From assembly GCA_965153455.1 (NCBI GenBank), contig OZ234493.1, positions 35,454,213 to 35,518,212 on the forward strand: 64,000 nucleotides of DNA. The letters run 5' to 3'. Positions 9,900-51,518 of the stretch are shown one piece after another. A model generated the notes under the pieces. The model did not search any database and was not told the origin of the DNA. It worked only from the letters and a program-made list of their open reading frames with translations. Positions within the stretch are counted from its first letter, which is position 1, and each line of letters opens with the position of its first letter. The stretch comes from Sphagnum compactum. Its lineage: Eukaryota. The translations under genes and the position numbers were made by a program.

Positions 9900-11290
9900 A
9901 TCCAGTAAACTTGACAATGCATCTATAACTACATGAGTTCTGCCTTGCTTATACACTACTATGAAATCATATTCAAAGAACAATAACAACCATTTAGTTA
10001 GTCTCCTTAAAAGCTATGGTTTGTTGACCAAAGAGACCAATGCCATATGATCTACATAAAAGACAAACTTATTGCCTAGCAAATAATGTCTGAACTTGTG
10101 CAAAGAAAAAACCATTGTTAAAGCCTATTTCTATGTTGTGTTATAATTATGTTATGCTCTACTTAAAAACTTAGAAGCATACACTATTGGTTGATCACTT
10201 TTCCCTATGACATTCTGAGACAACATAACCCCCATAGCTAACAAGGACACATTTGTATGAACATAAAATTCCACCTACCAGTTTGGTGATATCAGTATCG
10301 GTGCTTCAATATACTTCTATTTAATCAATTCCCAGGCCTTTTGACATTCCTCTGTCCAAAGAAAAGTCTCTATCTTTCTAGTCAATTTAGTGATAGGTGC
10401 CATAATCGCAACAATTTTTTTAATAAAACATTTGTAAAACTATGCCATCCCATTGAATACTTGAACTTGTTGGGGATTCTTAGGTGGTGGCATGTTTACA
10501 ATTGCCTATATTTCTTTTAGATTTGGTAGTTTCTCTTCCTTGGACATAATAAAACCCAAGATCATCCCTGAAAATACCATAAATGCACATTTGTTTGGAT
10601 TCAGATTAATGCCATATTCTTTGCACTTTTGAAAACATAGTCTAAGCTTTTGCAAATAACTCTCCATGTCACTATACACTGTAAAGTCATCCATGAATAT
10701 CTTCATAAAATTGTCCAAATACTCCTTTAATGCTTTGGTCATGGTTCTTTGATATGTTGGAGGTCCATTTTCAACTCCAAACAACATCACCTTCCATATA
10801 AAAGCCCCCAGTCTGTAACAAATGCAGTCTTGTATATGTCCTTTCGAGCTATAAATATTTGATGATATCTTGAATATCCATCTAAAAAGGAATATGCCTC
10901 ATACCCTGCTACTGTGTTCAGCACTTCTTCTGTGAAAGGTAATGGGTATGGATCCTAATTTGTGGCTGCATTTAATTTTCTGAAATCTATACAAATTTTT
11001 AGCTTGCCATTTTTCTTGGGTACTATTACTATGGGTGACAACCATGTAGCTTCTACAGATTCAATGAATCAGCTGCTAACAACTTATCTATATTTTGTTT
11101 GACCACTATAACATAGTTTAGATTTAATTTGTACTTGGCCTGATGTGCCAACGGTATAGTAGTGTCCAACTCTGGTGGAATCCCTTTCAGATATTTGTAT
11201 GTCCATGCAAAAACATCTTTGAATTCCTTCAACAGCTGCTTCACTTCGAGCACCTTGCCTATTTCCAGCTGTGCATTAATCTTCACCATT
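9900..11290 (-). pseudogene. Gypsy reverse transcriptase and RNase H, disrupted
   Basis: LLKEFKDVFAW, KKNGKLKICIDFRKLN, FLDGYSRYHQI, FGVENGPPTYQR, IFMDDF, LNPNKCAF, then RNase H-like FYVHTNVS...YASK...HKFRHYLLGNKF. Confidence 0.92.
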
Positions 11291-15432: not shown

Positions 15433-18180
15433 GGTTGGCAACCAAAGGGTATTGAGGGTACCCCATTTGTTCTACACACATAATACCCCGCAAGTCTAAG
15501 GCACTACAAAAGAATGTGTACAGATGCCAACATAGGAGATGGTTGCCTAAAGATCATGAGTTTCATAGGGACTTGGTAGCGTTTGATGGGGTTCGAAAGA
15601 TGGGCCAACCTCCACCAAAGGTGACAATTGTTGACATTTTTAGGGAAGCTGAATTAAAGGCGCAATGGCTTGTTGGTGGGGGCCGTCCAGCAAAAGAAGA
15701 CCCTGCCAAGAGGACTAGGATCAAGAGAGTATCCATCCTATTTGAACTAGAGTATTGGAAGGTACTAGAATTATTGAAACTTTTGAAATTCCTTCATGAA
15801 TTGAAATTTCATTCAACTTGAACAATATTTAAACAAGGCCATTCAATTTTGCTCACATAATTGTCCCCATTATATAATAGCCATGATTGTGCAATGTCAA
15901 GCTTCCAAGATGAAAATTTAGTAATAGGCCCATGAAACAGATCACTTCAACATATTGTCAACAACTAGCAACACAATCATTGGAATGTTAATCCCTGGAA
16001 AGTCAATCCCTGGAAAGTCAACCAAATGACTTAGATGTCACTAAAGAATCACCAAAACTTGCATCTATGGGTGCACCCAATGATGAACACTCAAGGGCTA
16101 TCATATGGTCACTTGTATTGTTTATGGACATGCTACAAAATAATGTTGTGGGTGATAATAAATGAAGAGAGGGCAATGAGTCCATAGAAATAGCAAGTTG
16201 CACAAAGTAACTTAGATGGAGTTAAATGTAATGGGTGCATCTATTGTGGGCAATGTAGGAACTACCTATTTGAAACACTTTGGATGTGATGCATGTGGAG
16301 CAAAATGTTTTAAATAACCTCTTGAAATATTTAATTGGGGAAAATGACACAATGGACGTGCGAAAGGACATGCAAGAGGCTAGTGTACACCAACATTTGT
16401 GGTTACAATCAAGGCTTGGATCATTTAACTATTTCAAACTGGCAACCCTTTATGTCTTTACAAGGAGGAGAACAAGTCTTTCCTAGAATTTGTTTCTAAT
16501 ATTCGAGCTCCAATAGGATATGTTATTGCTTTTAGGAAACATGTGGGCCCAAAGAGGTTGTATGCCATGAAGAGCCATGACCACCATGTTATGGTTCAAC
16601 AAATATTACCAGTGAGTGTGCGGGATTTGTTACAAACATGCTTGAGAATGGCAATCATACAACTTGAAAAATTATTTCAAAGAATTTGTGCTAAGGTGTT
16701 GAACCCAAAAGACCTTGTGGCATTGCGAACATATGTAACGGAAATAATATGTTTGTTTGAAATATGGTTTTCACCAGGGTTCTTTGACATGATGACCCAC
16801 TTGATTATCCGTCTTGTAGATGAACTAAAAATATGTGGGCTAGTAGGTGCTAGGTGGTGCTACCCAATGGAGGGATATATATCAATCTTAAAAAAAAGTG
16901 AGGAACAAGGCTAGGCCAGAAGCTTGCATGGCATTTGGTTACATGTACGACGAAGCTCTAGGGTTTTGCACATAATATTTTGCATTGTATTTGCACATGC
17001 GTCATCGCATTTGGGACGTTAATGAAAAGGAGGTAGACATTGATGAGGTGTTGAAAGGGCATGTTCAGTTTAAGAGATTGAATGCAATGGAGCTAGAAGC
17101 AATACATGAACATGTCATCACAAATTATGTGGCAGCAGATGCATTATACATATATACATTTCAAACATCAACATGTTGGTGGATTTGTGGTGGATTTTTT
17201 GTCCATAAGATTATAGTGCAAATGACATAATAATATAACATATGCATAGTGGAACATGGTGCTAAAAGGTTCCTAAAGTGGAATTATATAGTTTAACTTT
17301 AATTAGTGGGAGTGATTGTTTAGTGGAATGTGTTAGTGGTGGGAGTGATTTGCATAGGTGGCATGGGCATGGGCCCATTGTGTGGCCACTTCATTTGGCA
17401 CAAGAAATCCCAACATTTGCAAGGTGGTTGTTGGATCATGTTAGGACACAAATGACAAATGGAAGGCAATAGACCCCAAAGTGGTGGTTTATTCTCACCC
17501 ACCATCAACATTGGCATATACATACAACAATATGTGGGCATATGGAAACCACTACAGGGTTGATGTGAGACAAGGCCAACACATGCCACATATGACAATG
17601 GTGTTGCATGCATATTCAGGCAAGCTAGCTGCAATTCTATACAAGATAAGAACATTGTAATGGCCAATTTGCATTATGTGGGTGTGTTAAAAGAAATAAT
17701 TGTAATGTCCTACACTGGCCAACGTGTAACATTGATGAAATATTCATGGATACTTGTCCACATGTAAGGGAATTCAAAAACCATGCAAAAAGATGAACAT
17801 GGATTTTGGGTAGTGTACCACAGGTGATGGGTGAATGCAAACCTAGAATCTCATGTGTTCCTAACAGTGGTCTCACAAGTACAGTTCAGCCATGACCACA
17901 ATGCTTGTAAAATATATTCTATTGGATAAGAAATATCCAAAATTGTGTATATATGAAGGCTGGCCCCACTTGGTGTAATGATGACCTAAACAATACATGG
18001 GTCTTAAATGGGGGCATGTCAATATCTTTACCATGCACACATCTTCCATTGTCTACCCATTAATTAATTGTTTAATCATTGTAATTTGTAGGTGTTTTTA
18101 TAAAGGATAAGGTGAATGGTGGAGACTGGTGGGTAGTTGTGCAAAAGGAACCTCATGTTTGACATGTAGTAGCTATGGTG
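15433..18180 (+). pseudogene. CACTA (En/Spm) TNPD/Tnp2-type transposase pseudogene with spliceosomal introns
   Basis: After tgtag| the frame reads GLATKGY..G.PIC, HRRWLPKDHEFHRD...FDG and SILFELEYWK|gt (donor 15762). It resumes at ag|ELPI*NTLDVMHVEQN (16259), then AMKSHDHHVMVQQILP and FFDMMTHLIIRLVDELKICG...RWCYPME. These are conserved Tnp2/DUF4218-type motifs. Confidence 0.9.
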
Positions 18181-25400: not shown

Positions 25401-28400
25401 CCTTAAAGTTTACCTCGACATCAAATCAGGTGGTTTCTAAGTTGGGTCACCTCTCTCCTTCCCTCTCAATTGGTCTCACTCAATTTAAGCAATACACACA
25501 TGAAAAACATGCGCAATGCTAACGTGAGAGGAAGCTTTCCATTGAATTAATAAAAAGGGATGGGTGACCTCCACTTGGTGGGGGTAGAACTTGAATGGTG
25601 TTTTGATACTTCGGAAATGGAAAGAGGAGAGGAACATTACAATGCCACCAAATCCTCCCATGCCAAGGTGAGAAAGATTGTTAGGGTATGTACTATGGAC
25701 TCCAAAGGATTGGGAATTCTACTTTTACTTTTCAGATTTTTGAGAAGCAAAAACTTTCAAGTTTATTTTAAACAATTGCCCTTCACATGGAAGGATTGGA
25801 AAAGAAGTTGCCCTGCGCATGTGAAAGGTCCCAAAAGTTTTTTCCCTTCACTAGAAGGGCTAGGTGCCATTGAAGGGCATTGAAAGATTCAAATGTAAGG
25901 CCACACCACCCGCTCCACCATGAGGATGGGTGGTGATTGGCAGGAAACACTGTTCCATTGAGTTGCAATTGTGAAACCCTACTTAAACTTCATAAAAAGA
26001 AAGCACCCAAGAAAGGGAGAGAAAAAGAAACAAGGGGCAAAGACGAAAGTCCAGGCAAACAAACAACCCAAAAGAGGAGGGCCACAAGGAGGCAAGGGAA
26101 CCCCGAAGTACCGAAACCTCCACCAGTCACTTGAAGCATATCAAGTAAAGAAAAAGGAGGTAAACCTGATAAAACAATCAGTGTTTAAATCAGTTTTTGT
26201 TTTTGCCACCTGCGTACTAACAACGTGGTAGCATTATAGCATCCCTCACCTATGTACTAGTCATCAACATGCATTTACTTCCTAACCAGGCATTGATGAT
26301 CATACTGACCTATTTACAGGACACATCCTTTACAATATAGGTGAAATTCTAATGCACGGTGCCATCGTGGACGGTGGCTGTTGGTTCACTCGGGCCCCCT
26401 CTCTCTGGAATAACCTAACGAATTCAATGAAGAAACAGAAGCAAAGGACACAGATTCTAAGCATCTTTGGGCAGTGGATGTCCCACTTGAATGCACTTTG
26501 TATTTATATGTCCAGACGTGCCGCGCCGGATTGCTCAATAGTTTCAAAAAGAGCAGCCTTAGTAATAGTTTGTACGATCTTCTTTGTATCCCATTAAGGG
26601 CCGGCGCCTCGCATGATGTTTGGTGATGGCATCCATCCAGAATCACAATGGAATTTAACCCTATATAAGCAACCTCCTCCTTGCAAGTGACGGTTGTACC
26701 TCGTGACACCCCAAATTCCAATAGTAACTACTACACCCACAGAAGTAGGAAAAACGCAAGTCCGCTTCCTTCATTATCTGTAAGTTAAAAGGCCCTCGGT
26801 ATGGGGCATTCCCAAAATAAGGGGCCTAGAGCAATTATATAGCCTAATCCAGTGCACATTTTGTGTAGGGTAAAGGGCATTACTGAAAGAAGAGCACACG
26901 AAGTGAGAACCAAATGCAAGCTCAATTTCAGTTATTGCTCTCACCTGTGAGTTTTACTATGGTGTAGAACTCAATGCAACCTTCAAAGAGACAGTGTTTA
27001 GGGTTTTTGTAAAGCCCATTGTGAAAGCAGAACACCCACTTCCAGTGCAGATGAATAATTATGCACTATAACATGCCCTCCAATTATACAACAAAAATTC
27101 CAAGAGGTTTTTTATATGAATATCCCCAACCTATGAACCTTACCCAATGAAAAGCACAAGGTGAGGCTGACCATAAGCCTAAATATATGTAGTTCATGAG
27201 GCAGTAAGAGTAGGTTGGGTATCTTATACTTACTATGCAGGAGTGGGAGGGACCTTACCCACTTTGTTGAAGCAAGAGGCACCTTATATAATGTTGTTCT
27301 CCCCATCTGAAATAGTAGGTGTAAGATCCCTACTGTTTTTGGGAAGGCGGCAGAAGGGGCACTACAAATCCACTTTCGTGGAAATTTCTTGGAATGGTTT
27401 GCCATTGGTATTTTGAAATCTTTTACTTACTTACTTACGGCACAGGAGCAGTAGGCTTCATGATTATCATCAATGACAGTTGTAAACCTGGCAGGGAAAA
27501 GAAAAGTGCCTACAGTGGGGGTGCAATAAACGACTCCATCATCATCATGACTGCGTTTTTGCAATGAATGGATTGACGTATGATGACCAGCAGATGAAAC
27601 TTCTTGCTTATTTGCTATCCAAAAGGAGGGGGATGACTCCTCAAAGGGTGTCATGAACAAAATGACTTAATGATCCCAAAGTCTGTCGACTAAGAGTGAG
27701 AAAGCTCTATCATCATCTACCAGTAGGGTGATGTATCTATCACATTTGTTTTGTGGCAGTACTAGTCCCTGTAGTATTTATTTGTTTGTCTGTTGAAAAG
27801 TAGCTACTTTACAGGCCCACCCCTGAATGCAAACTTTTACGATTTTGCTGAACACAGATGTACAATCTACCTATCTACTTATTAGAAAGTTGTCAATGGA
27901 CAAGTGAAAACTCTATTCACATTTGACAAATTGTAGGGTTTGCCAAGATTATAATCATTCAACTACCTTCTCTACTTCATCCACGCTTAGCATCCGCTAG
28001 ATGTACAGGACAAGCTCCACGTTAGTAAATATTAGTTTTGTAAAGCTCCAGCAGAATTTTTCAGTGTATGTGGAGGGCATCCTATCAAGGTCAGATTTGG
28101 AAATGGCTCAGGGCATTCTGAGAAATGAAACGCCTGATCCAATGGGCATTTTTCCTTTTTCCTGTCACCTTACCTCTTTCTCTGTTTATTTTTCCTGTGA
28201 GACACAACAAGTATAATGGGGAAAATACTGCCAGTGATTAGTGGCCTCAGAGCAGGGACCCCAGTTCCTAAACCTGACATCTAATTCTTACCCCCAGACC
28301 TTTTCTCATTAGCCCCCAATAAAAGCCAAGATCCCAACAGCGATTCACAAGTTCATGAATGTTTCTGTTTGGTCTGTAAAGTAGATCCTACCACTACTCC

Positions 28401-32655: not shown

Positions 32656-33333
32656 CTACGTGCCTGGCTGCATCCCCTGCTGCACTTGCATATTATTGGC
32701 ATTCACTACATGACCGCCACCGATGGTGATGGCATGATCGGAGGTGGGAGCTGGAGGAGGCCGCTTGCGTTTCTTCTTTCCGTAAGCAATACCTCGTGCC
32801 TTGGCCTGCATTTCGCGTACCTCACGAAGGTAAAGACGCACTGTCCGAGCTCCGAACGGGTTAGACTCCGGCTTGCCGCCATTCTCCTCGAACGCGGCTC
32901 GTAATCTGCCGATGAGCGCATCCAGGGAACCCCACGCTTGGCGAAGCGGGCAAGGACAAGGGTGGGGAGGTTGTGGAAGGCCGAAGTAAGGGCACGTGGT
33001 CAGATGCACCTTCGTCTTACCAAACTGGTCCAGGTATCTCACGAAGTCCAGCACATGTGTGCCTGTACATCTCGCCAACGGCAGAGGCGGTCGATGGTTA
33101 CGCAGATACTGACCGAACGTATTCCAGTCTCGCCGCTTCTGCGCCTCGTAACGGCTAGGCGCCCTTGTCGATCCTTCATCAGCTTGCGCCTGCAGCTGCA
33201 GCTGATCATGGCCCAGTACAATACCACCACCTGCATGAAGTGCTGCTTCCCCAGCTCCTCCCATCATCGAAGTTCCTGCCCCCCCATGATCTACCAGTAT
33301 TCCTCGGCCCACCCCGGGCGGGTCACCACTCAT
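32656..33333 (-). CDS. ALOG-domain (LSH/G1/TAW1-like) nuclear transcription factor, 225 aa, single coding exon
   Basis: Intact GC-rich ORF with the canonical ALOG motifs [74 protein letters not shown] and QAKARGI, plus the basic NLS KKKRKR. Confidence 0.97.
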
Positions 33334-34084
33334 GAGTCACGAATTAACCACCTCCCCTCCCCCGCCCCCCGCCCCCACTTCGGACCACCCACCCTACGCC
33401 GCGACTTGTAAGCTAGCAGCTCGAACTTACAGCTCTGCAGCTCTCACATCCGGCCGCCGCTGTTCAAACTTCACACCTTTTTCTCCCAGAACGTGGCTTT
33501 AGACGCCTCAGGCCAAGATTTTTTTTTCTCTTTTGTTGCATCTGCTTAGCTTAGTGCAGGCACTAGAAACAAACACTAGCTCTAATCGATGATCCCTTAC
33601 ACACGAAAGAACAAGCAGATAAAACTTTTGCTGAGGATAAACTACGAATTCACGCCTGCACCGCGCCGGGAGCCTAGTTCCGCGGCCTCCTGAGAAATTG
33701 CGAGTCGACGAAACCTGCAAAGGCCACACGCTTCAGAGCTTCAGACAACTAGAGCTACTACTACTACTGTCACAACCCTTAGCGAGGGAGGTTGCTGCTG
33801 CACACCATTGGCTTGGCGATTGAGTCCCGCGAGTTAGCCTTGCGTCGACGACGAGCTCGGCCGGGAAAAAAAAAAGAGAAAACAAAAAAAAAAGCAACTA
33901 ACCGACACACCTATGCTTAGAAGTTGTTGGAAAAAGCTACTCGCGTTTGTCGGACATGACTGACTGTTCAGATGCTGCTGCAGCATAACAATAGCTACGC
34001 AGATCCGTAGCACCTTCCCGGTCTCCTCCTTTACTGTTCCACACCAACCAATGTTTTTTTTTTTTTTTTTTTTGGGGGGGGTAA

Positions 34085-42272: not shown

Positions 42273-43395
42273 TCAAGCAGTGGAGCAGCAACTAGCTTTT
42301 CTTGGCTGTGCAACATCAAGCCCTGACAACCTTTGACTGCTACCCAGAACTGTATTAGACTTCATGGAGACTGAAGAAGTGAGAGATTTCTTACTAACTA
42401 ATCTGTAGATCTCCTTCACCACTGTCTGGAAAGCATCAACCACATTGGTGGCATTCATGGCTGAAGTCTCTATGAAAGATAGGTTCTCCTTCTGCGCGAA
42501 AGCTGTAGCCTCTTCTTTTGTCACCTCCCGTATATTGTCGAGGTCACATTTGTTTCCCACAAGCATGACAACAACACTGGCATCCGAATGCACTGTAGAT
42601 GAAAAAAATTATCACCACATGAAGCCAACATGCCCCAGCACTTCATCATCAGGATCAGCTTATCATGTCATCATAGGATTCATCTACAACCCTTGCAGAG
42701 TTTGACTCATTTAAAACTTATAATGGAAGCAAAGCTGAGAGGTATTGGGGGAAAGGAGGAAAAGAGGATGTTGGAAACATGTGCCAAATTAGCCTGCACG
42801 TCCCTCCGTCTACAGCATCATGCTCAGTTGAAAATCAAAATTACATCTGGGTGTGAAGCATCCGCTAGGTCCTGCTTTCAGTGTCCTTGCTTTTTCCTTC
42901 AACCTAAAGCTTCAGTTTCAGTTGAAATTGAAAGATGCATACGTCAATGTGGTTCTCACTAATCTTTGCTCTAGGAAAAGAAATGGCAATATATATCTAT
43001 ATATATATATATATACAGGTAGATGTCTTCCACTCTTTTTTCTGATGAGAAGAAAATTTACCTCTGAGTTCGTCTAACCAGCGACCTACATTCTCGAATG
43101 TGGCTTTCCGGCTGATATCATAAACGATAAGCGCGCCAACAGCACCTCTGTAGTAAGCGGAAGTCACGGCCCGGAAGCGTTCTTGACCGGCAGTGTCCCA
43201 GATCTGTGCCTTAATCTCCTTGCCGTCAATCTCCATACTTTGTGTCTGAAACTCCACACCAATCGTGGCTTTGGAATTGAGGTTGAATTCATTGCGTGCG
43301 TACCTAGATAGCAGATTCGACTTCCCCACAGCCGAGTCCCCAATCAACACCACTTTGAACAGATAATCCTCGCTCTTGTCGTCATTGTAAGCCAT
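42273..43395 (-). CDS. RABA5: Rab11-family small GTPase, RabA5 subclass; exons 43395-43062 and 42592-42273, 217 aa
   Basis: GDSAVGKS P-loop, TIGVEFQTQ effector loop (typical of RabA5), [30 protein letters not shown] and a C-terminal CCSTA prenylation site. The GT-AG intron 43061-42593 gives 654 nt in frame. Confidence 0.95.
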
Positions 43396-43674
43396 TTTGA
43401 CCCCGACAAAATCTACGGTGCCAACTATGCGCACGCACACACACAATCAGCACTGCCTGGACCGATCTAGCAGCCACAAGCCGACGACGCTGCTGATCAC
43501 CACAAACACGTTCGAGACCAACTCTCTCTCTCTCTCTCTCGACAGATCAAATACAGAAACACTCAAAACAGGAGTATTATCCGCTCCAAGACACCAGTAC
43601 AGACAGACTCTCGGGTCCAATGTGCAGCCGAACCCGTACGAGACCTGGCGATGCAAGCAAAACAAATCCAGAAG

Positions 43675-44769: not shown

Positions 44770-47217
44770 GGCCAGAGTAAACCTGCACCCACCAGTGCAC
44801 CATCCACTGGATGCTCCTTATGACTCAGTTGTGGATGAACCTCAAGTGAGTTAATATGGCCAGAGTGAACCAGCACGCACCATTCACTAAGACCATTCAC
44901 TAGAAACCCATTTATGACTCAGTTGTGGATGAACCTCAACTTAGTTAATATTTGGTTTCATGTTGGTAACCCATTTTTTGTAAGAAGTAGGTCATTTATA
45001 TATAAGGAGATAGGTACGAAATTAGGTGATTACTAAGCAAGTGGATAGTTTATATATATGTTTTACGAACTACTTACTAACAGCCTGCAAATTGTTAGTA
45101 GCAGGCAGGTAGTAAAAAAGCAACTGAGCTGACCACCATGGTTCATAAGGGAATTGGAACCCAATAAAAAATTGTTCCTTGACAACTTATGATCCATGTT
45201 TCATAGTGCACTGGTGGGTGATGCTTATCTTAGTGACCCATTGTGTAATCATGCTTTCATGCAGTTTGGGATAGCCTTCTTCTCACAATTAGAGAGATGC
45301 ACATTTTTTTTGAAAGTTTGACAGTTACTAGCGCCTTAGGTCTATAAGTATCTTTGATGGACATCCATCACAACACATCCTTTAGGTCTATCGAATGATT
45401 TCATTTTCAGAGCTTGCATTCGTTCTTATTCAAACAAGGGGATGGGGTTATGATTGATTGTTGAACCATCTATCCATTCGTTCCACATCACACACTCTAC
45501 TTTCATCTTAACAATGCGTTTTCGTCTCAGTTTGATTTAGGCCTCGACATCTAATCTTCTCATGTGTGAATGTGAACATGGGTTAAATGTGTTTGGCACA
45601 CATCTAGCACGTTGTCCATTCGGAGGTTAGTGAATAGCTACACATGACACCATTAAAAATGTCATGTATGCCCTTGCTCGAAAAAGTGGGCACGTTGTAT
45701 GAAGAGAAGAATGGTGCACCTTTATGTCAAGAGCTTCATCATGAGTTAATTTTTGTATGACTCGTGAAGACCAAGTTTTTGTTGTCAATGTTGTGGTTAT
45801 CAACTCAACACGGAGACGGTGGCTACGAATGTCATTAACTGACCAACAGGTGTAACTGTGGAATTTAACACCATTGCCAAAATTCGCAAGTATAGAAGGC
45901 TTCATGAAAGGCATCACTTTATTCCAATGGTCATAGAGGTGCACGACACACCCGAACATGATATGGATCATTTCATCAAGGAATGTGTTCTTCTTTTCCA
46001 CGATAGATGATCGAAAGATCATTTATCCTTGTCTTTTTGCATTCAATTTTTCATGCAACGTGTTAGTATAACCTTTCAATGTGCTTTAGCCTCTACTATA
46101 GAAAGGAAGATTGCTTTGGGGGGAGATGTTTATTCTAAACCTTCTATTAGATTTAAATCTCATGATTTACACGCAAGCAACATTAAAAGGGTTGTGGGTG
46201 AAATAGCTTCCAACCACGAAAGGGACTAACTTTCTCCTTTCTTTGGTTCCTACGGGTTGCACGTATGTTGGCCTTTTTTTTGTCTACCATGTGATGGTTC
46301 TAACCATCGATTTTTACTGGATTTTTTGTTTTGTTTGAGTGACCCATTCAATAAAAAGTATGACCTATATAATAGGTTAGTATGAAAATAGGTGACTACA
46401 TAAATACTAAATGGTGTATATTAATGTTAGGCAGGTATGAAACCATGGTTTAAAATTGACTTGGTTCTCAATTGATTATCAACCAAAGAATCAATCAGGT
46501 ATTTTGCGAGTGTTATTCAAGTTGATACTTGGATTTTCACATATAAAATTTGGGATACCCAGTTCATTTTAAATGAATTCTTTTTTTCCATTAAAGTTTT
46601 TGATACTTTGGTAGAATATATGAATAATCCTTGGGTTTAGTTTTTAGGGGTTTAGGAGTAAAAACTTTAAGGTTAATTAAGGTTAGGGTCTTAATGTGCA
46701 GGCAAGTTTAGTATCTATTTTGGTTTAGATGTTAGAGCTTTGTAATGAACCTTGATGAATTTTTTTGACCAATAAAATTTGAAAAAGTATTTTTTAATTT
46801 TAATCTTAAAATCTTAAAGTGAAATTTAAAAACTAGTTCAATATAACAGACTAATAATGTAAATGAGTTAAGAATCAGTTGTGAAAGGACTAGTTGGGCA
46901 TGAATAAAAGTCGAACAGGGTATGAAAAAATAAATAAATATGAGAATTGTTTCCATTCTTAAATTTAAATTTTTAGAGGATGAGAACAAATGGTTATGAA
47001 AAGAAGTTAAAACCACCCAACACTGGTTTATACTTAGGTAAGAGGTGTTTTTATTACCTACCTATTAACAATCAGCTTGCAAGTTGTTAACAGAAAAAAA
47101 CAACTAAGCTAACAACCATGGTTAGCTTAGGTAATTGGAACCCAACGGAAAATTGTTTCCTGACCACTTACCATCCATCCTTCATGGTGTGTTGGTGGGT
47201 GCTAGTTCACTCTGGCC
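44770..47217. mobile_element. Compound MITE-like region bounded by GGCCAGAGT(G/A)AAC inverted ends
   Basis: ggccagagtaaac (44770) and ggccagagtgaac (44858) are inverted relative to gttcactctggcc (47205-47217). Related internal blocks lie at 45080-45220 and 47060-47200. Confidence 0.5.
45243..46337 (+). mobile_element. 5'-truncated non-LTR retrotransposon with a restriction-like endonuclease (CRE/R2-like), decayed
   Basis: 11-bp direct repeat agtgacccatt at 45232-45242 and 46338-46348. The + frame reads MRFRLSL...CECEHGLNVFGTHLARCPFGG**IATHDTIKN...SGHVV*REE...*VNFCMTREDQVFVVNVVV, then RKYRRLH..HHFIPMVIEVH and QRVSITFQCALA. This is a zinc knuckle followed by an RHD-like motif and a degenerate PD-(D/E)xK layout. 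The 3' end is T-rich. Confidence 0.8.
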
Positions 47218-47732
47218 CCCTTTTTTTTGGGATCAAATTATGCATTAGGTTAACAAATTTTGTAGATGGGCAAGGCCTGCAGAGAGGGGCATTACAAGAA
47301 TAAGGGTGCCCATCCAATGTAGCACCACAGCCAAACATTGAATTCTGATAATGGACCCATTCAGGGGCTTTACAGGACATAATGACCTACCATAATTATA
47401 TTTCCATATTTAATGGGTAGGATCTTAAACATCTTATATACATGCTAGTGGGTACTCGTGACCTTCGGACATTGTGAAATCCCCCGGTTTCTTTAAACTA
47501 AGACACACACAAAGGCGCAAAGCAGCTAATTTTATTTTTAGTTTATTTACTTTTGTGGTGAAAATCCATTGAAAAGTCCCCCATGAAAACATACATGGTG
47601 AAGCGAGCGTTTTTAGACTTGTTGTAGAAGACAGAATTATAGAAACAGTGTCAAACTGGCTAAATTTACAGCAATATTCCTTCCATCAGAAGTGCTTTCC
47701 AATTTGCAATTCAGGAAATTTCTTCAATGCAC

Positions 47733-47840
47733 CTTGGCTGCAATGAGCTCACATTGCGTCCCCTTTCTAGACGCCGGAACTCCAGAAATCATAATCCTCA
47801 GGGCCTCCATTCCTGCCTGCTGATGCTTAAACCAATTTCG
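47733..47840 (-). pseudogene. Isolated exon of a plastid-type adenylate kinase
   Basis: ctctag|RNWFKHQQAGMEALRIMISGVPASRKGTQCELIAAK|gt, 108 bp. Matches the plastid AK P-loop IMISGAPASGKGTQCELI with a G>R change. No downstream AK exons were seen. Confidence 0.8.
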
Positions 47841-48189
47841 CTAGAGAAAAAAAAAGAAAAACCAATAAGTCGAAATAGAGCATGAATAATTGATGACAAC
47901 ATGTTATTATGATGTTGCAACAGCAGCAGCGCTTTGAAATTTTGTTAACAAAAAACTCGAATTGAATTTTCTTTTAATTTTAAAAAAAAAGTGATTATGA
48001 AATGACCCACCTTTGTGATGAAGTTGTTTGGAAACACTGGAAAATCCTCACACTGAAATCCTGACAAAAGTCTCAGAACTTCAAACCTTTCATAAAGTAC
48101 ACGCAAAGCATGTTGAGAAAGAATTTCCAAGTTCTCTAATGGCATCTTCCAGGAATTCCAAGCAAGAATTGCCTTCTAAAAACAAAATA

Positions 48190-48337
48190 GCAAGCCTATT
48201 GTCCACATCCGGATGTCCATACCGGCAGACTCGGATCATCCGTATTGGGAACTGTTAGTCTCACTTGTTCCATTGGCGACTCGTCCACGTTCCCACCCTG
48301 TATTAATGCTTTCAGTCCCTCCAGTCCCTCCCCCGGA
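48190..48337 (-). pseudogene. N-terminal fragment of an OPT-family oligopeptide transporter
   Basis: Reads DESPMEQVRLTVPNTDDPSLPVWT[1-bp deletion]RMWTIGL, the classic OPT SPxxEVRLTVxxTDDPxLPVWTFRMW motif. Truncated immediately afterwards. Confidence 0.88.
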
Positions 48338-48496
48338 CTACACAAAACCAAAACTCACATCAATCCATCTTCTTCTTCTTCTTCTTCTTGTTTTTCTTTG
48401 TCTTCTTCTTCTTCTTCCTGGCATCCCCCACTTTCCACAACAATCACAACAAAGGTGCAAATGTGTGTGACTGGCAACAGTTAAGGAAAGACATAC

Positions 48497-49116
48497 CCAG
48501 ACTGGCAGCAGCAATGGGGTCCCGGTCAAATCGATCAAATATCACATCTCTGGTTGGCCAAGCTCTGTCTCTATGATTCTCACAACTGTCTCTGACTCAA
48601 ATGGCGGCACTTGATCCTTCTCACAGGAAAAACAAACATCCAACCTTCAGCAAAAATAGAAAATTATTCCTAAATCTCTCCTCCCTGATGAAGAGGAAGA
48701 AAAAGATCATGAAGAGAAAGATCATGTGGAGCAGCTGCAAAAAGACCGTGAAGAGAACAACCATGCAGAGCTGCAGAGAAGAGCCTAAAGAGAAAGATCA
48801 TGCAGAGCTGCAGAAAGATTGTGAAGAGAAAGATGGTCATGCAAGGAAGCAGAAAAGATCATGGAGAGAGATGGTCATGCAAGGAAGCAGAAAAGATCAT
48901 GAGCTATTGCTGCTGCTACTGCAGAAAGATTGCAATTTGTACTACTGACCTGCAGCTCTGCCAATTCATCGACATACTCCTGAGCAAGAATGTCAACACG
49001 GGTGGAGAATTGTTGCCCAATTTTGATGAAAGTTGGCCCCAATCGCAGCAACCCTTCCTTCACCCATTTCGCAAGCCTCTTCCTCTTCTCCTTTTTCTTC
49101 AGCTCTGTCATACCAT
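48497..49116 (-). pseudogene. Two exons plus intron of an ABC1 atypical kinase (ABC1K8/OSA1-like)
   Basis: Exon 49116-48950 reads [55 protein letters not shown]|gt. Exon 48616-48497 reads DQVPPFESETVVRIIETELGQP[1-bp deletion]DVIFDRFDRDPIAAASL G|gt. No flanking ABC1K exons were seen. Confidence 0.9.
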
Positions 49117-49133
49117 CTGCAAAACAACCTACA

Positions 49134-49302
49134 ACCAAACTCTCCTCCTCCACCAATCTGCTGCTGCTGTTGTTGCTAATCCAAACTCCTCCTCCACCAA
49201 TCTGTTGCTGCTGTTGCTAATCCAAACTTCTCCTCCTCCACCAATCTGCTGCTGCTGTTGCTAATCCAAACTTCTCCTCCTCCACCAATCTGTTGCTGCT
49301 GC
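49134..49302. repeat. Four tandem ~42-45-bp units
   Basis: ccaaac(t)tctcctcctccaccaatctg(c/t)tgctgctgttgctaat repeated. A second degenerate array (aaagatcatg...gcag) lies within the ABC1K intron at ~48690-48930. Confidence 0.9.
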
Positions 49303-50913
49303 CATTCGTCCTCCTCCTGTTCCATCATCTTTTTCTTCCGGGATGAGGAACTTGGATGGACGGATGACGGGACGGATGGATGGAAAGGACGACCACCCAA
49401 GGATGTTATATAAGTAGATAACATGAGCACTTTGCAAAACATAAAATCCTGCCCTGAAATGCAAGATGCCCTCCCTTTTTAGAGTGTAGCATTCCCTTTT
49501 CCTAAGTTGGTGTCAAAATACACCAGGGAAAATGCTGACCAGTTCCACATTGGGTTCTGCTAATCCTATTTGTGATGTGCATCAAGGGCATGGAATACTA
49601 AAGCAATGTGAATCAACAGTGGGAACTCCACTCGGAGGCTGTTAAGTCAGCAATGGGTCTGCATCTTTTTTCCCTGACTGCCCAATTGCCCAATCAAGAG
49701 GTGTCTGGTGATGACCGGACACATCTTGGTGCTGCCCAGACACAAGTTTTGTGTTTTATTATACATGCTTTGGTTGTATATTTTGGACATTAGCAGGTAT
49801 ATCATGCCTCTTAGTGTCTATTACATGTGCAAAGCATGCATAAATGGACCCACATTTTGTGTATGGGGATTATTCATCTTTTTCTCAAGAAGATGAATTG
49901 GGCCAAAGGCAAACAAAGAAAAAAAAGAAGCAGACAGTACTGACTGCAATAAGGATCCATTGCTGATTTAACATTCTCCAACTCCAGTTATGTTCAGGAA
50001 TAGCCATGGTGAAACCCATTGCCACCTGACGGAATGAAGTCTCAGGCTCATTCCTAGTAAGAGCGGGTGCAGTATGTTCATAGTAAGGGTAATTTAGAAT
50101 TAGATGTACGATCTTGTGTGTGGTGTGAACCCAAGCTTAGCCACACCCACTTAGTCAGCACATGCATGTTATTCATTTCCATCAGTGCCTATCCTGTGGA
50201 TGGGTTCAGAATCCAGCTCAATTTTGGGCTGCAAATGGGGCTCACTCTCTCAAATAGGAATGTCTAAAGTCTATTTTGAATGGCCTCAGATTACCTCCAA
50301 CCACACAGTGCTAGAAAGTTGAAAAGTAAAATTACATAATTTTTAAGAAGCTTTTTTGAGTATTTGGTTGACATAAAACTTGTGTTAGGCATTGATTTAT
50401 AACAGGTCTGTTATAGATATCTATCTTCCCATTTTGGTCACTATCTCTCTCGAGTGTCTGATCTTCACCAGTCGATCATGTCATTTCATGTGGTCAAGAA
50501 AAGGACATAATCTGCCGCCCCAGGCCTTAATGTATGTCAGGGGTTCACGACACAGTTTCCAACATCAACACACATATCAGTCAAAACACATAGACGTCAT
50601 GCAACAAATCTCTAGGAAGGACATTAAGGAGACGATGAACTCTAAGAACACAAGAGGCTGAAACTAAATTGCTTGAAAAAGGAACATGCATGAAAAGGGA
50701 GGATGTTAAATACCCATTAAAGAGCACTGTCCGGGCACCAGTGCGTGGAGTGGCATTGCTCTGCCACAAAGGTTTGATCCATTGAACCCTATTTAGTAAG
50801 TTAAAGAGAAAACAACACTGTTTTCCTTTAGTGTTGAAAGTATGCTGATGCCAAATATCTTCACCTTCATGTCGGAAGAAGTGTTGGATTTAAAAATTGG
50901 TGTGAGACAGTAT

Positions 50914-51518
50914 AGGGTAAACTGGCCGGTGATTGAACACTTAAGCTCTCAAGGCAGGCCAGACCCAAGGGGAGGGCTAAGTTGTTTCTGATTTCCAAAC
51001 AAAACTTGAACCCCTCCAATTAGCGCATCTGGCACACTAAATGAAATAGAATCGAGAAAGTTACAGCCCCCAAAAGTAGAGGGGATTAAGAACTCAGAAA
51101 AACAAACCATCGAATGTTACAAAGGCTGATTCCCAAACACCCAAAACATTCTTTAAAAGATTCCTTGTGTGTTGCTTTGTTGCTATTAGAGTTCAAAGAT
51201 GATTTGTAGAAATTCAGGTGACACTCCTATAGCGCTTTACTAAATCGTTTAAATTGAATAAGAAATAAGAAAGTTATGAGGTTTGAAAATAAGAGCGGTC
51301 AAAATAAAGAAAATTTTTCAAAACGCATGTTACAATTTGAAAAAATGTATTTTCTTTACAGCTCCTTTTTGGCCGGTCCCTTGGCTTTGCATTTCAGAAA
51401 CGATTTGTAGAGCTTGAGAAGATGCTCCTATAAAATTTTAAATCATTCAAAATGGAGAAGAATTGAGAAACATTTGTCTAAGTGTTCGAGCATAAGCAGG
51501 CTTGAGCCAGTTTACCCT
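50914..51518. mobile_element. MITE-like element with a 13-bp perfect TIR
   Basis: agggtaaactggc (50914-50926) and gccagtttaccct (51506-51518). A second inverted pair, gaacactta and taagtgttc, lies just inside. The interior is AT-rich and non-coding. Confidence 0.8.

What the first reader, a model, noticed from the sequence alone, without database searches (positions are those of the whole stretch)
47733..49116. Co-oriented mosaic of three unrelated gene fragments: ABC1K8-like kinase, OPT transporter and plastid adenylate kinase
Seen: within ~1.4 kb on the - strand lie two ABC1K exons with their intron, an OPT N-terminal fragment behind an AG acceptor (48337), an open 165-bp phase-0 exon of unknown origin (48175-48011), and an adenylate-kinase P-loop exon. 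The exons keep their AG/GT borders; the OPT piece has an acceptor only. Established: Helitrons and Pack-type DNA transposons capture intron-containing host fragments, and in Helitrons these are usually co-oriented. Inference: this is DNA-level exon capture rather than a retrocopy. It could splice into a chimeric transcript or produce small RNAs against three donor genes, two of them plastid-protein genes. The ORF track shows only the first ABC1K exon.
Basis: partly seen in the sequence, partly recalled or inferred. Interest (0 to 1): 0.85.

Follow-up and report, generated by a model that had tools for sequence, protein, structure and literature searches.

The report
Gene-fragment-carrying transposon in peat moss
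A mobile DNA element about 2 kb long in a peat-moss (Sphagnum) genome carries pieces of at least four unrelated host genes, a habit well known from transposons of flowering plants, and this particular copy is decayed and apparently silent.

Summary
The mosaic is real. On the minus strand lie two ABC1K8-like exons with their intron, part of exon 1 of an OPT transporter, and an adenylate-kinase P-loop exon. Two details need correcting. The OPT-derived sequence runs through the supposed AG acceptor at 48337, up to about 48417. The "unknown 165-bp exon" is 163 bp that are 93% identical to intron sequence of a 2OG-oxygenase-like gene, a fourth donor.

The mosaic sits inside a 1,976-bp segment (47442-49417). 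A single-copy contig of a sister species joins the two flanks directly and lacks this segment. Most of the segment reads at tens of times the single-copy DNA depth. It has no terminal inverted repeats and no target-site duplication. It begins with TC and ends with CTAG, and other copies break exactly at that CTAG into varied AT-rich flanks that start with T.

The best reading is a non-autonomous, Helitron-like element that captured host DNA, introns included. Weak points: no 3' hairpin, a 5' end not shown to be shared by other copies, and no RepHel partner (no genome was held).

This copy carries two frameshifts, a stop codon and a broken P-loop. Only 9 of 712 laid RNA reads match it at 99% or better. 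RNA over the ABC1K exons comes from the donor gene. Other family copies are transcribed in sense. This is a new member of a known kind and of moderate interest.

The parts
47442..49417 (-). Whole inserted element, about 1,976 bp (boundaries good to 1-2 nt). It holds the complete mosaic.
   Evidence: tables 8 and 5c. Contig record 7 of organism B (586 nt, depth 35, the single-copy level) matches 47180-47441 and 49432-49745 with 15 letters between, 13 of which equal window 49418-49430. The segment is therefore absent in B.
49395..49418 (-). 5' end of the element. It reads TC TACTTATATAAC... and is preceded by A.
   Evidence: with the empty site. The 18-nt end is unique in the window. It is not shown to be shared by other copies: most copies of the leader leave the window's sequence at 49394 (64 reads).
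49302..49394 (-). Leader, a high-copy part of the family.
   Evidence: DNA depth is 110 in bin 49319-49519 against a baseline of about 1.2. It is 95% identical to residues 184-202 of the S. compactum gene model P0121, where it lies close upstream of the OPT piece with no ABC1K between them.
49135..49301 (-). Tandem array, 44-bp unit, 3.8 copies.
   Evidence: (89% matches), family D1.
49117..49134 (-). Last ~18 nt of the ABC1K intron upstream of exon a, with its AG.
   Evidence: The read-through ORFs of the donor gene (P0002, P0003, P0163) and the window share only the residues VVGCFA before the exon. Border string.
48950..49116 (-). ABC1K8-like exon a.
   Evidence: 100% protein identity to P0006 residues about 136-192. 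Loose ends of RNA reads mark the same outer border in the donor mRNA.
48617..48949 (-). ABC1K intron (GT..AG), with internal 37-38-bp tandem repeats at 48694-48902.
   Evidence: The splice that skips 333 nt is seen in 57 RNA reads from the donor gene. The start of the intron matches the donor's intron in read-through ORFs ([14 protein letters not shown]).
48497..48616 (-). ABC1K8-like exon b, with one base missing between 48550 and 48549 (frameshift).
   Evidence: In one search, table 4, 5 of 6 DNA reads and the organism B contig carry the extra base, so the frameshift is private to this copy.
48444..48496 (-). Start of the next ABC1K intron (inferred), running into family core sequence.
   Evidence: A GT follows exon b. 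From about 48443 downstream the sequence matches P0121, P0171 and P0176, which are copies of the OPT-bearing core.
48179..48417 (-). Piece of OPT transporter exon 1 (about residues 33-114 of a 790-aa protein). It has a GAA-rich stretch, a TGA at 48357-48355 and one missing base at 48212.
   Evidence: The missing base is, table 4. The end point GLLFCF is shared by P0127, P0128, P0168, P0169 and P0171.
48027..48188 (-).
   Evidence: 92.6-93.3% identity to L001, L002 and L003; position in the intron; 2OG-FeII_Oxy, E 1.4e-4, 22.5 bits against a cut-off of 23; no protein relatives.
47841..48026 (-). AT-rich spacer that ends in a polypyrimidine tract and AG before the AK exon.
   Evidence: It is shared with other copies, as shown by the read-through ORFs P0131 and P0150.
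47734..47840 (-). Adenylate-kinase P-loop exon. The P-loop glycine is replaced by arginine in this copy.
   Evidence: 1zak_A, E 2.3e-5; ADK, E 0.1. At 47768 the family letter restores glycine (89 of 90 DNA reads; codon effect).
47614..47733 (-). 120-bp segment that starts with GT, possibly a remnant of the AK intron. It is present in only some of the copies.
   Evidence: Depth is 39 at 47639. In contrast, 50 DNA and 21 RNA reads leave the window's sequence exactly at 47734, and 107 DNA reads do so at 47613.
47445..47613 (-). 3' terminal region of the family, ending in CTAG.
   Evidence: table 7. 144 reads of X21 and 8 contigs of X11 break at 47445 into varied AT-rich sequence (agreement 0.44 and 0.56). 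On the minus strand that flanking sequence starts with T.

Best explanation
Positions 47442-49417 are one copy of a non-autonomous DNA transposon family of Sphagnum. It is most like a canonical (HLE1-type) Helitron, and it carries host DNA captured at the DNA level from at least four loci.

Inferred history:
- A common core holds the 5' part of OPT exon 1, a piece of a 2OG-oxygenase gene's intron and an adenylate-kinase exon. This core was amplified to tens of copies.
- A minority subfamily later acquired a two-exon ABC1K8-like piece, with its intron, next to a 44-bp tandem array.
- One such element inserted here after this species split from a sister species.

The copy is inert. It encodes nothing functional (frameshifts, a stop, a broken P-loop) and gives almost no RNA of its own. 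It would need a RepHel enzyme supplied in trans to move. Other family members are transcribed in the sense of the captured fragments and are called as genes in other Sphagnum assemblies.

Shown: the insertion polymorphism, the multi-copy state, the lack of TIR and TSD, the TC/CTAG ends, retained introns, and the donors' identities. Inferred: rolling-circle transposition, the order of captures, and any regulatory effect.
For: 1. Empty site. Organism B's single-copy contig joins 47441 to 49418 with 2 letters between (tables 8 and 5c). Organism C's contig record 1 also stops matching at 47443 and carries 28 further letters that do not fit.
2. Multi-copy state. X21 DNA depth (both columns added) is 52-154 over 47309-48514 and 36-110 over 48917-49519. 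The mean is about 1.2 in the 7 flank bins 49520-50926. Of 2,576 laid reads, 107 are 99% or more alike, 687 are 95-99% and 1,782 are 90-95%.
3. Shared 3' end. Other copies break at 47445, right after CTAG, into varied AT-rich flanks that begin with T. This is seen in Hi-C reads of organism A (144 reads) and in whole-genome contigs of organism C (8 contigs).
4. Ends. TC at the 5' end, preceded by A. The empty site in B offers an A|T step at that spot.
5. No TIRs pair the ends (35 inverted pairs found, the 25 longest shown). There is no duplicated target: B's empty site already holds both flanking halves.
6. Capture at the DNA level. The ABC1K intron is retained and intron-derived sequence of a fourth gene is present.
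7. Diverged sister copies with the same junctions occur in other Sphagnum assemblies and in peat metagenomes: P0005, P0160 and P0162 for the ABC1K form; P0127, P0128, P0168, P0169 and P0171 end at the same OPT breakpoint; P0131, P0153 and P0150 cross into the intron piece.
8. Family letters restore donor-like residues where this copy differs: G in the P-loop, V and LE in OPT.
9. The defining Helitron features are taken from passages in PMC4683698 and PMC11417382.
Against: - No GC-rich hairpin lies near the 3' end of this copy (-5 kcal/mol, z = +1.2, 186 of 200 shuffles fold at least as well).
- The base after CTAG is C here, not T. The 3' flank differs from B's by 1-2 letters, so the junction is resolved only to 1-2 nt.
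- The 5'-most 23 nt are not shown to be shared. Most copies of the leader continue at 49394 into one common, different sequence (64 reads, agreement 0.89).
- No RepHel gene lies in the window, and no genome was held in which to look for a partner or collect copies.
- The empty site rests on one 586-nt contig of another species, whose left flank is itself a high-copy repeat.
- The copy-number baseline is very low (about 1x) and the library is Hi-C. At least one strong loose end (48234) is a GATC ligation artefact.
Confidence: 0.7

Rival explanations
1. The 2-kb segment was not transposed. It was copied into a double-strand break from another family member by ectopic gap repair or template switching, or it is a small dispersed segmental duplication.
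For: There is no TSD and no TIR. The 5' end is private to this copy or to a few copies (loose end at 49394). There is no 3' hairpin. The 3' flank has small mismatches against the empty site.
Against: The 3' boundary of the insertion coincides, within 3 nt, with the place where 144 reads and 8 contigs of other copies break into unrelated flanks. Tens of copies exist. The ends read TC and CTAG.
Confidence: 0.12
2. It is a Pack-type TIR transposon (Pack-MULE, CACTA or GingerRoot) carrying gene fragments.
For: Such elements are known to carry gene fragments (recalled for Pack-MULE and CACTA). Remnants of a CACTA-type transposase lie in the same window at 15456-16914 (Transposase_21 and DUF4218). 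GingerRoot occurs in bryophytes (PMC6839031 abstract).
Against: No inverted repeat pairs the two ends. There is no CACTA...TAGTG pair. There is no TSD of 3, 6 or 9 bp, because the empty site in B holds both flanks unduplicated.
Confidence: 0.04
3. The segment is ancestral and organism B lost it by deletion, so the window shows no insertion.
For: A presence/absence difference alone does not give direction. Imperfect short direct repeats (CATGTTAT and CATGTATAT) flank the segment.
Against: B retains both of those short repeats side by side, so it is not a recombination product between them. The boundary coincides with the family's 3' end. Organism C's contig also stops matching at the same point.
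Confidence: 0.05
4. It is a retroposed copy of an unspliced chimeric transcript (reverse transcription by a LINE).
For: The constant 3' end with a variable 5' side resembles 5' truncation. Most family copies leave the window's sequence exactly at the AK exon's last base (47734) in DNA as well as RNA, which could mean one spliced junction fixed in DNA.
Against: Introns are retained. There is no poly(A) or simple-repeat tail after CTAG and no TSD.
Confidence: 0.05
5. It is an assembly chimera.
For: Nothing was seen in favour of this reading.
Against: The same junctions are seen in independent assemblies and species: leader, ABC1K a, ABC1K b and OPT in the S. compactum model P0005; OPT to intron piece in P0131 and P0153; exon a, intron and exon b in an organism B contig, record 9.
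Confidence: 0.01

Closest known systems
Non-autonomous plant Helitrons that carry gene fragments, for example the maize elements (maize passage in PMC4683698; the original maize papers are recalled, not read)
   Same: There are several co-oriented fragments of unrelated genes with introns retained. There is no TIR and no TSD. The ends read 5'-TC and CTAG-3'. Targets are AT-rich. Many copies share the 3' end. Family members are transcribed.
   Different: No 3' hairpin is seen in this copy. The 3' flank base is C. No RepHel partner has been identified. The host is a moss.
Mothra, a non-autonomous rice Helitron (PMC4683698, passages read)
   Same: The size is about 2 kb (Mothra consensus 1,993 bp). 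It has TC and CTAG ends, internal blocks of tandem repeats and gene fragments.
   Different: Mothra has a 16-bp hairpin 13 bp upstream of its 3' end, and none was found here. There is no sequence relationship.
HelenSM92, a Helitron-like element of type 2 in Sphagnum magellanicum (PMC11417382, passage read)
   Same: It is in the same genus and the same superfamily in the wide sense, and it has also captured a host domain.
   Different: [quoted passage not shown] Neither feature is present here.
Pack-MULEs, CACTA elements with captured exons, and GingerRoot (GingerRoot abstract and passages read; the others recalled)
   Same: They form mosaics of host gene fragments inside a non-autonomous DNA transposon.
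   Different: They need long TIRs and a TSD of 9-10, 3 or 6 bp. None of these is present here.

Membership tests
Helitron (HLE1, canonical) | 5' end starts with TC | tested here: met
   The element starts with TCTACTTATATAAC at 49418/49417, as fixed by the empty site. The boundary is known only to 1-2 nt.
Helitron (HLE1, canonical) | 3' end is CTRR | tested here: met
   CTAG lies at 47448-47445. Other copies break exactly there: 144 reads of X21 and 8 contigs of X11.
Helitron (HLE1, canonical) | GC-rich hairpin of 15-20 bp about 10-12 bp upstream of the 3' end | tested here: not met
   Folding the last 96 nt gave -5 kcal/mol, z = +1.2. With the family's letter at 47456 there is only an 8-nt palindrome. 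The family consensus could not be folded.
Helitron (HLE1, canonical) | Insertion between A and T, without a target-site duplication | tested here: inconclusive
   There is no TSD and the 5' flank base is A. B's empty site has an A|T step at the spot. Other copies' 3' flanks start with T. This copy's 3' flank starts with C.
Helitron (HLE1, canonical) | No terminal inverted repeats | tested here: met
Helitron (HLE1, canonical) | An autonomous RepHel-encoding partner with the same termini in the genome | not testable with these tools
   No genome is held. No RepHel-like ORF appears among the 35 ORFs of 110 aa or more (judged by eye, with Pfam run on 8 of them).
Helitron-like element 2 / Helentron | Short TIRs (12-17 nt) and insertion between T and T | tested here: not met
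Pack-MULE / CACTA / GingerRoot (TIR elements that carry gene fragments) | TIRs at both ends and a TSD of fixed length | tested here: not met
Processed retrocopy | Introns lost, poly(A) tail, TSD | tested here: not met
   A 333-bp intron is retained, no A-run follows the 3' end, and there is no TSD.
ABC1K8-type atypical kinase gene (as a functional member) | A complete ABC1 kinase domain in an open frame | tested here: not met
   Only about 95 of about 700 residues are present, with a frameshift. Pfam ABC1 scored 14.8 bits against a cut-off of 22.9.

The most novel reading that the evidence does not exclude
Sphagnum hosts a recently mobile Helitron-type family that works without the canonical 3' hairpin. 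It has serially assembled a mosaic from four donors (OPT, a 2OG-oxygenase intron, AK, ABC1K8). It differs in insertion sites between sister species. Its sense-strand chimeric RNAs feed small-RNA silencing of the donor genes, two of which resemble plastid-protein genes, or seed new genes.
Probability: 0.12. Interest if true: 0.6.

Novelty: new member of a known kind. Interest (0 to 1): 0.35.

Why it matters
Capture of gene fragments by Helitrons and Pack-type elements is textbook for maize, rice and Arabidopsis. My five searches of the held library found no report of it in Sphagnum or other bryophytes: terms Sphagnum + Helitron; Helitron + gene fragments + moss; Sphagnum + transposable elements + chromosome-scale; Helitron + bryophyte + gene capture; Sphagnum + gene fragments + transposon. 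These searches cover only that library, and supplements were closed.

The practical point is annotation. Copies of this family are called as genes in several Sphagnum assemblies (P0005, P0121, P0128, P0167) and as 'ABC1/UbiB kinase' or 'hypothetical protein' in peat metagenomes. RNA reads from the true ABC1K gene map onto the fragment and mimic expression. The insertion polymorphism between sister species also offers a marker and a hint of fairly recent transposition in peat mosses.

Tried and rejected
- Whole-genome search of the window's own assembly: no genome held.
- Earlier notes of this scan, by place and by sequence: nothing.
- Exact scans for the 3' terminal 19-mer in prokaryote genome contigs and in viral contigs: 0 matches each.
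- Self-comparison of 47000-49800 against the whole window: no second copy of the element. Only a short flank repeat turned up (47094-47201, also at 45114-45220 and 25916-25970).
I used the search of solved-structure sequences instead. No Sphagnum AK donor was identified, and 'plastid' AK is not shown.
- Pfam on the leader ORF and the 3' region ORF: no families.
- Homology of the leader to the OPT N-terminus: not significant (E 0.8 or worse).
- The strong X21 loose end at 48234 first looked like a repeat boundary. I rejected it because its consensus ends in GATC at a GATC site, which marks a Hi-C ligation junction.
- The metagenome scan returned only the 2OG-oxygenase gene (3 loci), not further copies of the mosaic. 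The cap then prevented a second scan with another piece.

Full report
**What the window is.** Exon a of the ABC1K piece is 100% identical in protein to a full-length 696-aa ABC1 kinase of Sphagnum balticum (P0006). The closest hits of every piece are Sphagnum proteins or ORFs from peat metagenomes. The window is therefore nuclear DNA of a peat moss. Its other contents fit that:
- an ALOG-domain gene at 32659-33336 (minus strand);
- a Rab/Ras GTPase exon at 43000-43446 (minus strand);
- CACTA-type transposase remnants at 15456-16911;
- a reverse-transcriptase fragment at 10509-10898.

No genome is held for the window, and the scan has no earlier notes on it.

**Check of the observation.** All the pieces are there, on the minus strand, and far beyond chance.
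- Exon a (48950-49116) and exon b (48497-48616) match P0006 at 93% and at 91-95% (tblastn). They are 81-85% identical to angiosperm proteins named ACTIVITY OF BC1 COMPLEX KINASE 8 (1,181 of 1,253 candidates at E 0.01 or better).
They are the donor gene's real splice sites. In poly(A) RNA of the same species, 57 reads skip exactly 333 nt between the exons. The loose ends of the reads spell the donor's neighbouring exons, LNNQKFMYRG upstream and QVHRATFRGE downstream.
- The OPT piece matches Sphagnum OPT proteins at 85-93% (29 of 46 candidates).
- The AK exon matches maize adenylate kinase 1zak_A over 25 residues, E 2.3e-5. Pfam alone was sub-threshold.

Two points are wrong in detail.
1. The 'AG acceptor' at 48337 is not a border. 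With a relaxed tblastn, OPT residues 33-102 align without a break from 48417 to 48214 (64% identity, E 2e-27).
2. The 'open 165-bp exon of unknown origin' has no protein relatives among 1.84 billion representatives except two tiny metagenomic ORFs that are copies of the same repeat. Positions 48027-48188 are 92.6-93.3% identical to a stretch on three mutually orthologous peat-metagenome contigs. On those contigs it begins 50 nt inside intron 1 of a 2OG-Fe(II)-oxygenase-like gene. It is a fourth donor, and it is intron, not exon.

**The copy is decayed.** One base is missing in exon b. 5 of 6 DNA reads and the sister species' contig have it. One base is missing in the OPT piece at 48212. There is an in-frame TGA at 48357-48355. 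The P-loop glycine of AK reads arginine. At these and other sites the letters carried by nearly all other copies restore the donor-like residue.

**What surrounds it.** I laid four runs on 45500-51500 at 90% likeness or better:
- poly(A) RNA (X22) of the same species label;
- Hi-C DNA (X21) of the same species label;
- assembled contigs of sister species B (X9);
- assembled contigs of sister species C (X11).

*Empty site.* A single-copy contig of species B (record 7, 586 nt, depth 35, like the neighbouring single-copy contigs) matches 47180-47441 and 49432-49745 at about 97.6%. It has 15 letters between the two parts, and 13 of them equal window 49418-49430. Species B therefore has an empty site, and the window has 1,976 extra bases (47442-49417) that hold the entire mosaic. 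Contigs 7, 10, 11 and 12 tile B's right flank, so this is the orthologous region. Species C's contig also stops matching at 47443.

*Copy number.* DNA depth in X21 (the two strand columns added):

| Region | Depth |
|---|---|
| 7 flank bins 49520-50926 (baseline) | about 1.2 |
| 47309-48514 (3' end, AK, intron piece, OPT) | 52-154 |
| exon a | 36 |
| tandem array and leader | 51-110 |
| ABC1K intron and the start of exon b | 7-11 |

Of 2,576 reads laid, 107 are 99% or more alike (about what one locus should give), 687 are 95-99% alike and 1,782 are 90-95% alike. The segment is thus a member of an old family with tens of copies, and the complete ABC1K piece is in only a handful of them. Summed contig depths in B and C point the same way, but the tool warns that they are not copy numbers.

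**Ends and class.** On the minus strand the junctions read ...GTTA | TCTACTTATATAAC ... CCCACTAG | CATGTATAT..., and species B reads ...CATGTTAT-AC-GTATATAAG....
- *5' end.* The element starts with TC after an A.
- *3' end.* It ends with CTAG. 144 Hi-C reads and 8 whole-genome contigs of species C from other copies break exactly after that CTAG. They run into varied AT-rich sequence that begins with T.
- *No TIR.* No inverted repeat pairs the ends.
- *No TSD.* Nothing is duplicated at the target, because B already has both flanking halves.

By the definitions quoted in PMC4683698 and PMC11417382, these are the marks of a canonical Helitron. They exclude the TT-inserting, TIR-bearing HLE2 type reported from Sphagnum magellanicum. 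They also exclude Pack-MULE, CACTA and GingerRoot elements.

Three things keep me from filing it as a proven Helitron.
- I find no hairpin before the 3' end.
- The first flank base here is C, not T.
- The 5'-most 23 nt are not shown to be shared. Most copies of the leader run at 49394 into another, common sequence.

No RepHel partner could be sought.

**Order of capture (inferred).**
- ORFs from other assemblies show the OPT piece starting at OPT's own methionine and ending at the same odd breakpoint, GLLFCF. From there it continues straight into the intron piece (P0127, P0128, P0168, P0169, P0171, P0131, P0153).
- The S. compactum model P0121 has the leader close to the OPT piece with no ABC1K between them.
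- P0005, P0160 and P0162 carry the tandem-array leader plus ABC1K.

Together with the depth profile, this suggests a widespread OPT, intron-piece and AK core, and a later, rarer acquisition of ABC1K.

**Expression.**
- Only 9 of 712 laid RNA reads are 99% or more like the window.
- All RNA over the ABC1K exons carries letters that the DNA copies lack (for example 82 of 82 reads at 48524, against 1 of 30 DNA reads), so it comes from the donor gene.
- The intron and the tandem array have RNA depth 0-1.6.
- Over the OPT, intron-piece and AK part, sense-strand RNA depth is 21-97, but with the family's letters.
- No loose end is listed at the junction between OPT and the intron piece. I therefore infer that other copies give chimeric sense RNA.
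- The junctions 48497>48337 and 48011>47840 are not among the 15 joints shown (89 were not shown).
- The S. compactum gene model P0005 does use the 48497>48337 junction and reads out of frame into a stop. That is a prediction, not evidence of splicing.

**Unexplained.**
- Most copies part from the window exactly at the last base of the AK exon, in DNA as well as RNA.
- Depth drops inside exon b.
- 70 RNA reads come from copies that lack 52 nt of the OPT piece.

**Verdict.** The best reading is a dead copy of a Helitron-like element that carries gene fragments: probability about 0.85 for a mobile capture element, about 0.6 for a Helitron proper. This is a known kind of thing in a group where I found no report of it. 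Interest is moderate.

Noticed in passing
window 47094-47308 (also 45114-45220 and 25916-25970): A very high-copy short repeat lies directly beside the insertion site. Summed contig depth is about 29,800 in species B and 26,200 in C, against a single-copy level of about 35. RNA reads lie on both strands. The element inserted next to or into it.
   Followed up: partly
window 47734: 50 DNA reads and 21 RNA reads from other copies leave the window's sequence exactly at the last base of the AK exon and share one alternative continuation. About 39 reads follow the window's GT... segment. These are two subfamilies that split at an exon border.
   Followed up: no
window 48286-48337: 70 RNA reads come from family copies that lack these 52 nt of the OPT piece (loose end at 48285).
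   Followed up: no
window 48524: The expressed ABC1K gene of this species reads TGG (Trp) in 82 of 82 RNA reads where the S. balticum protein P0006 has Arg. Four of the six listed donor-versus-copy differences are synonymous.
   Followed up: partly
L001 8188-11080 (with L002 and L003): Peat-metagenome contigs carry a Sphagnum-like 2OG-Fe(II)-oxygenase-type gene. Its first intron holds the 163-bp stretch shared with the element. The three contigs are 94-96% alike, as expected for different species or haplotypes.
   Followed up: partly
window 15456-16911 (+) and 10509-10898 (-): Remnants of a CACTA-type transposase (Transposase_21, E 3.4e-5; DUF4218, E 3e-17) and of a reverse transcriptase (RVT_1, E 3.5e-16).
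   Followed up: partly
window 32659-33336 (-) and 42273-43446 (-): An intact-looking ALOG-domain gene (E 9.5e-63) and a Rab-type small GTPase gene with introns (Ras family, E 3.5e-40). These are the nearest ordinary host genes.
   Followed up: partly
window 48234: A strong loose end in the Hi-C run (156 reads) lies on a GATC site, and its consensus ends in GATC. It is a ligation junction, not a repeat boundary. This is a caution for reading loose ends from Hi-C libraries.
   Followed up: yes
window 51128-51500 and 45902-46102: Further multi-copy stretches (X21 depth 31-44 and about 16, against a baseline of about 1.2), unrelated to the element.
   Followed up: no
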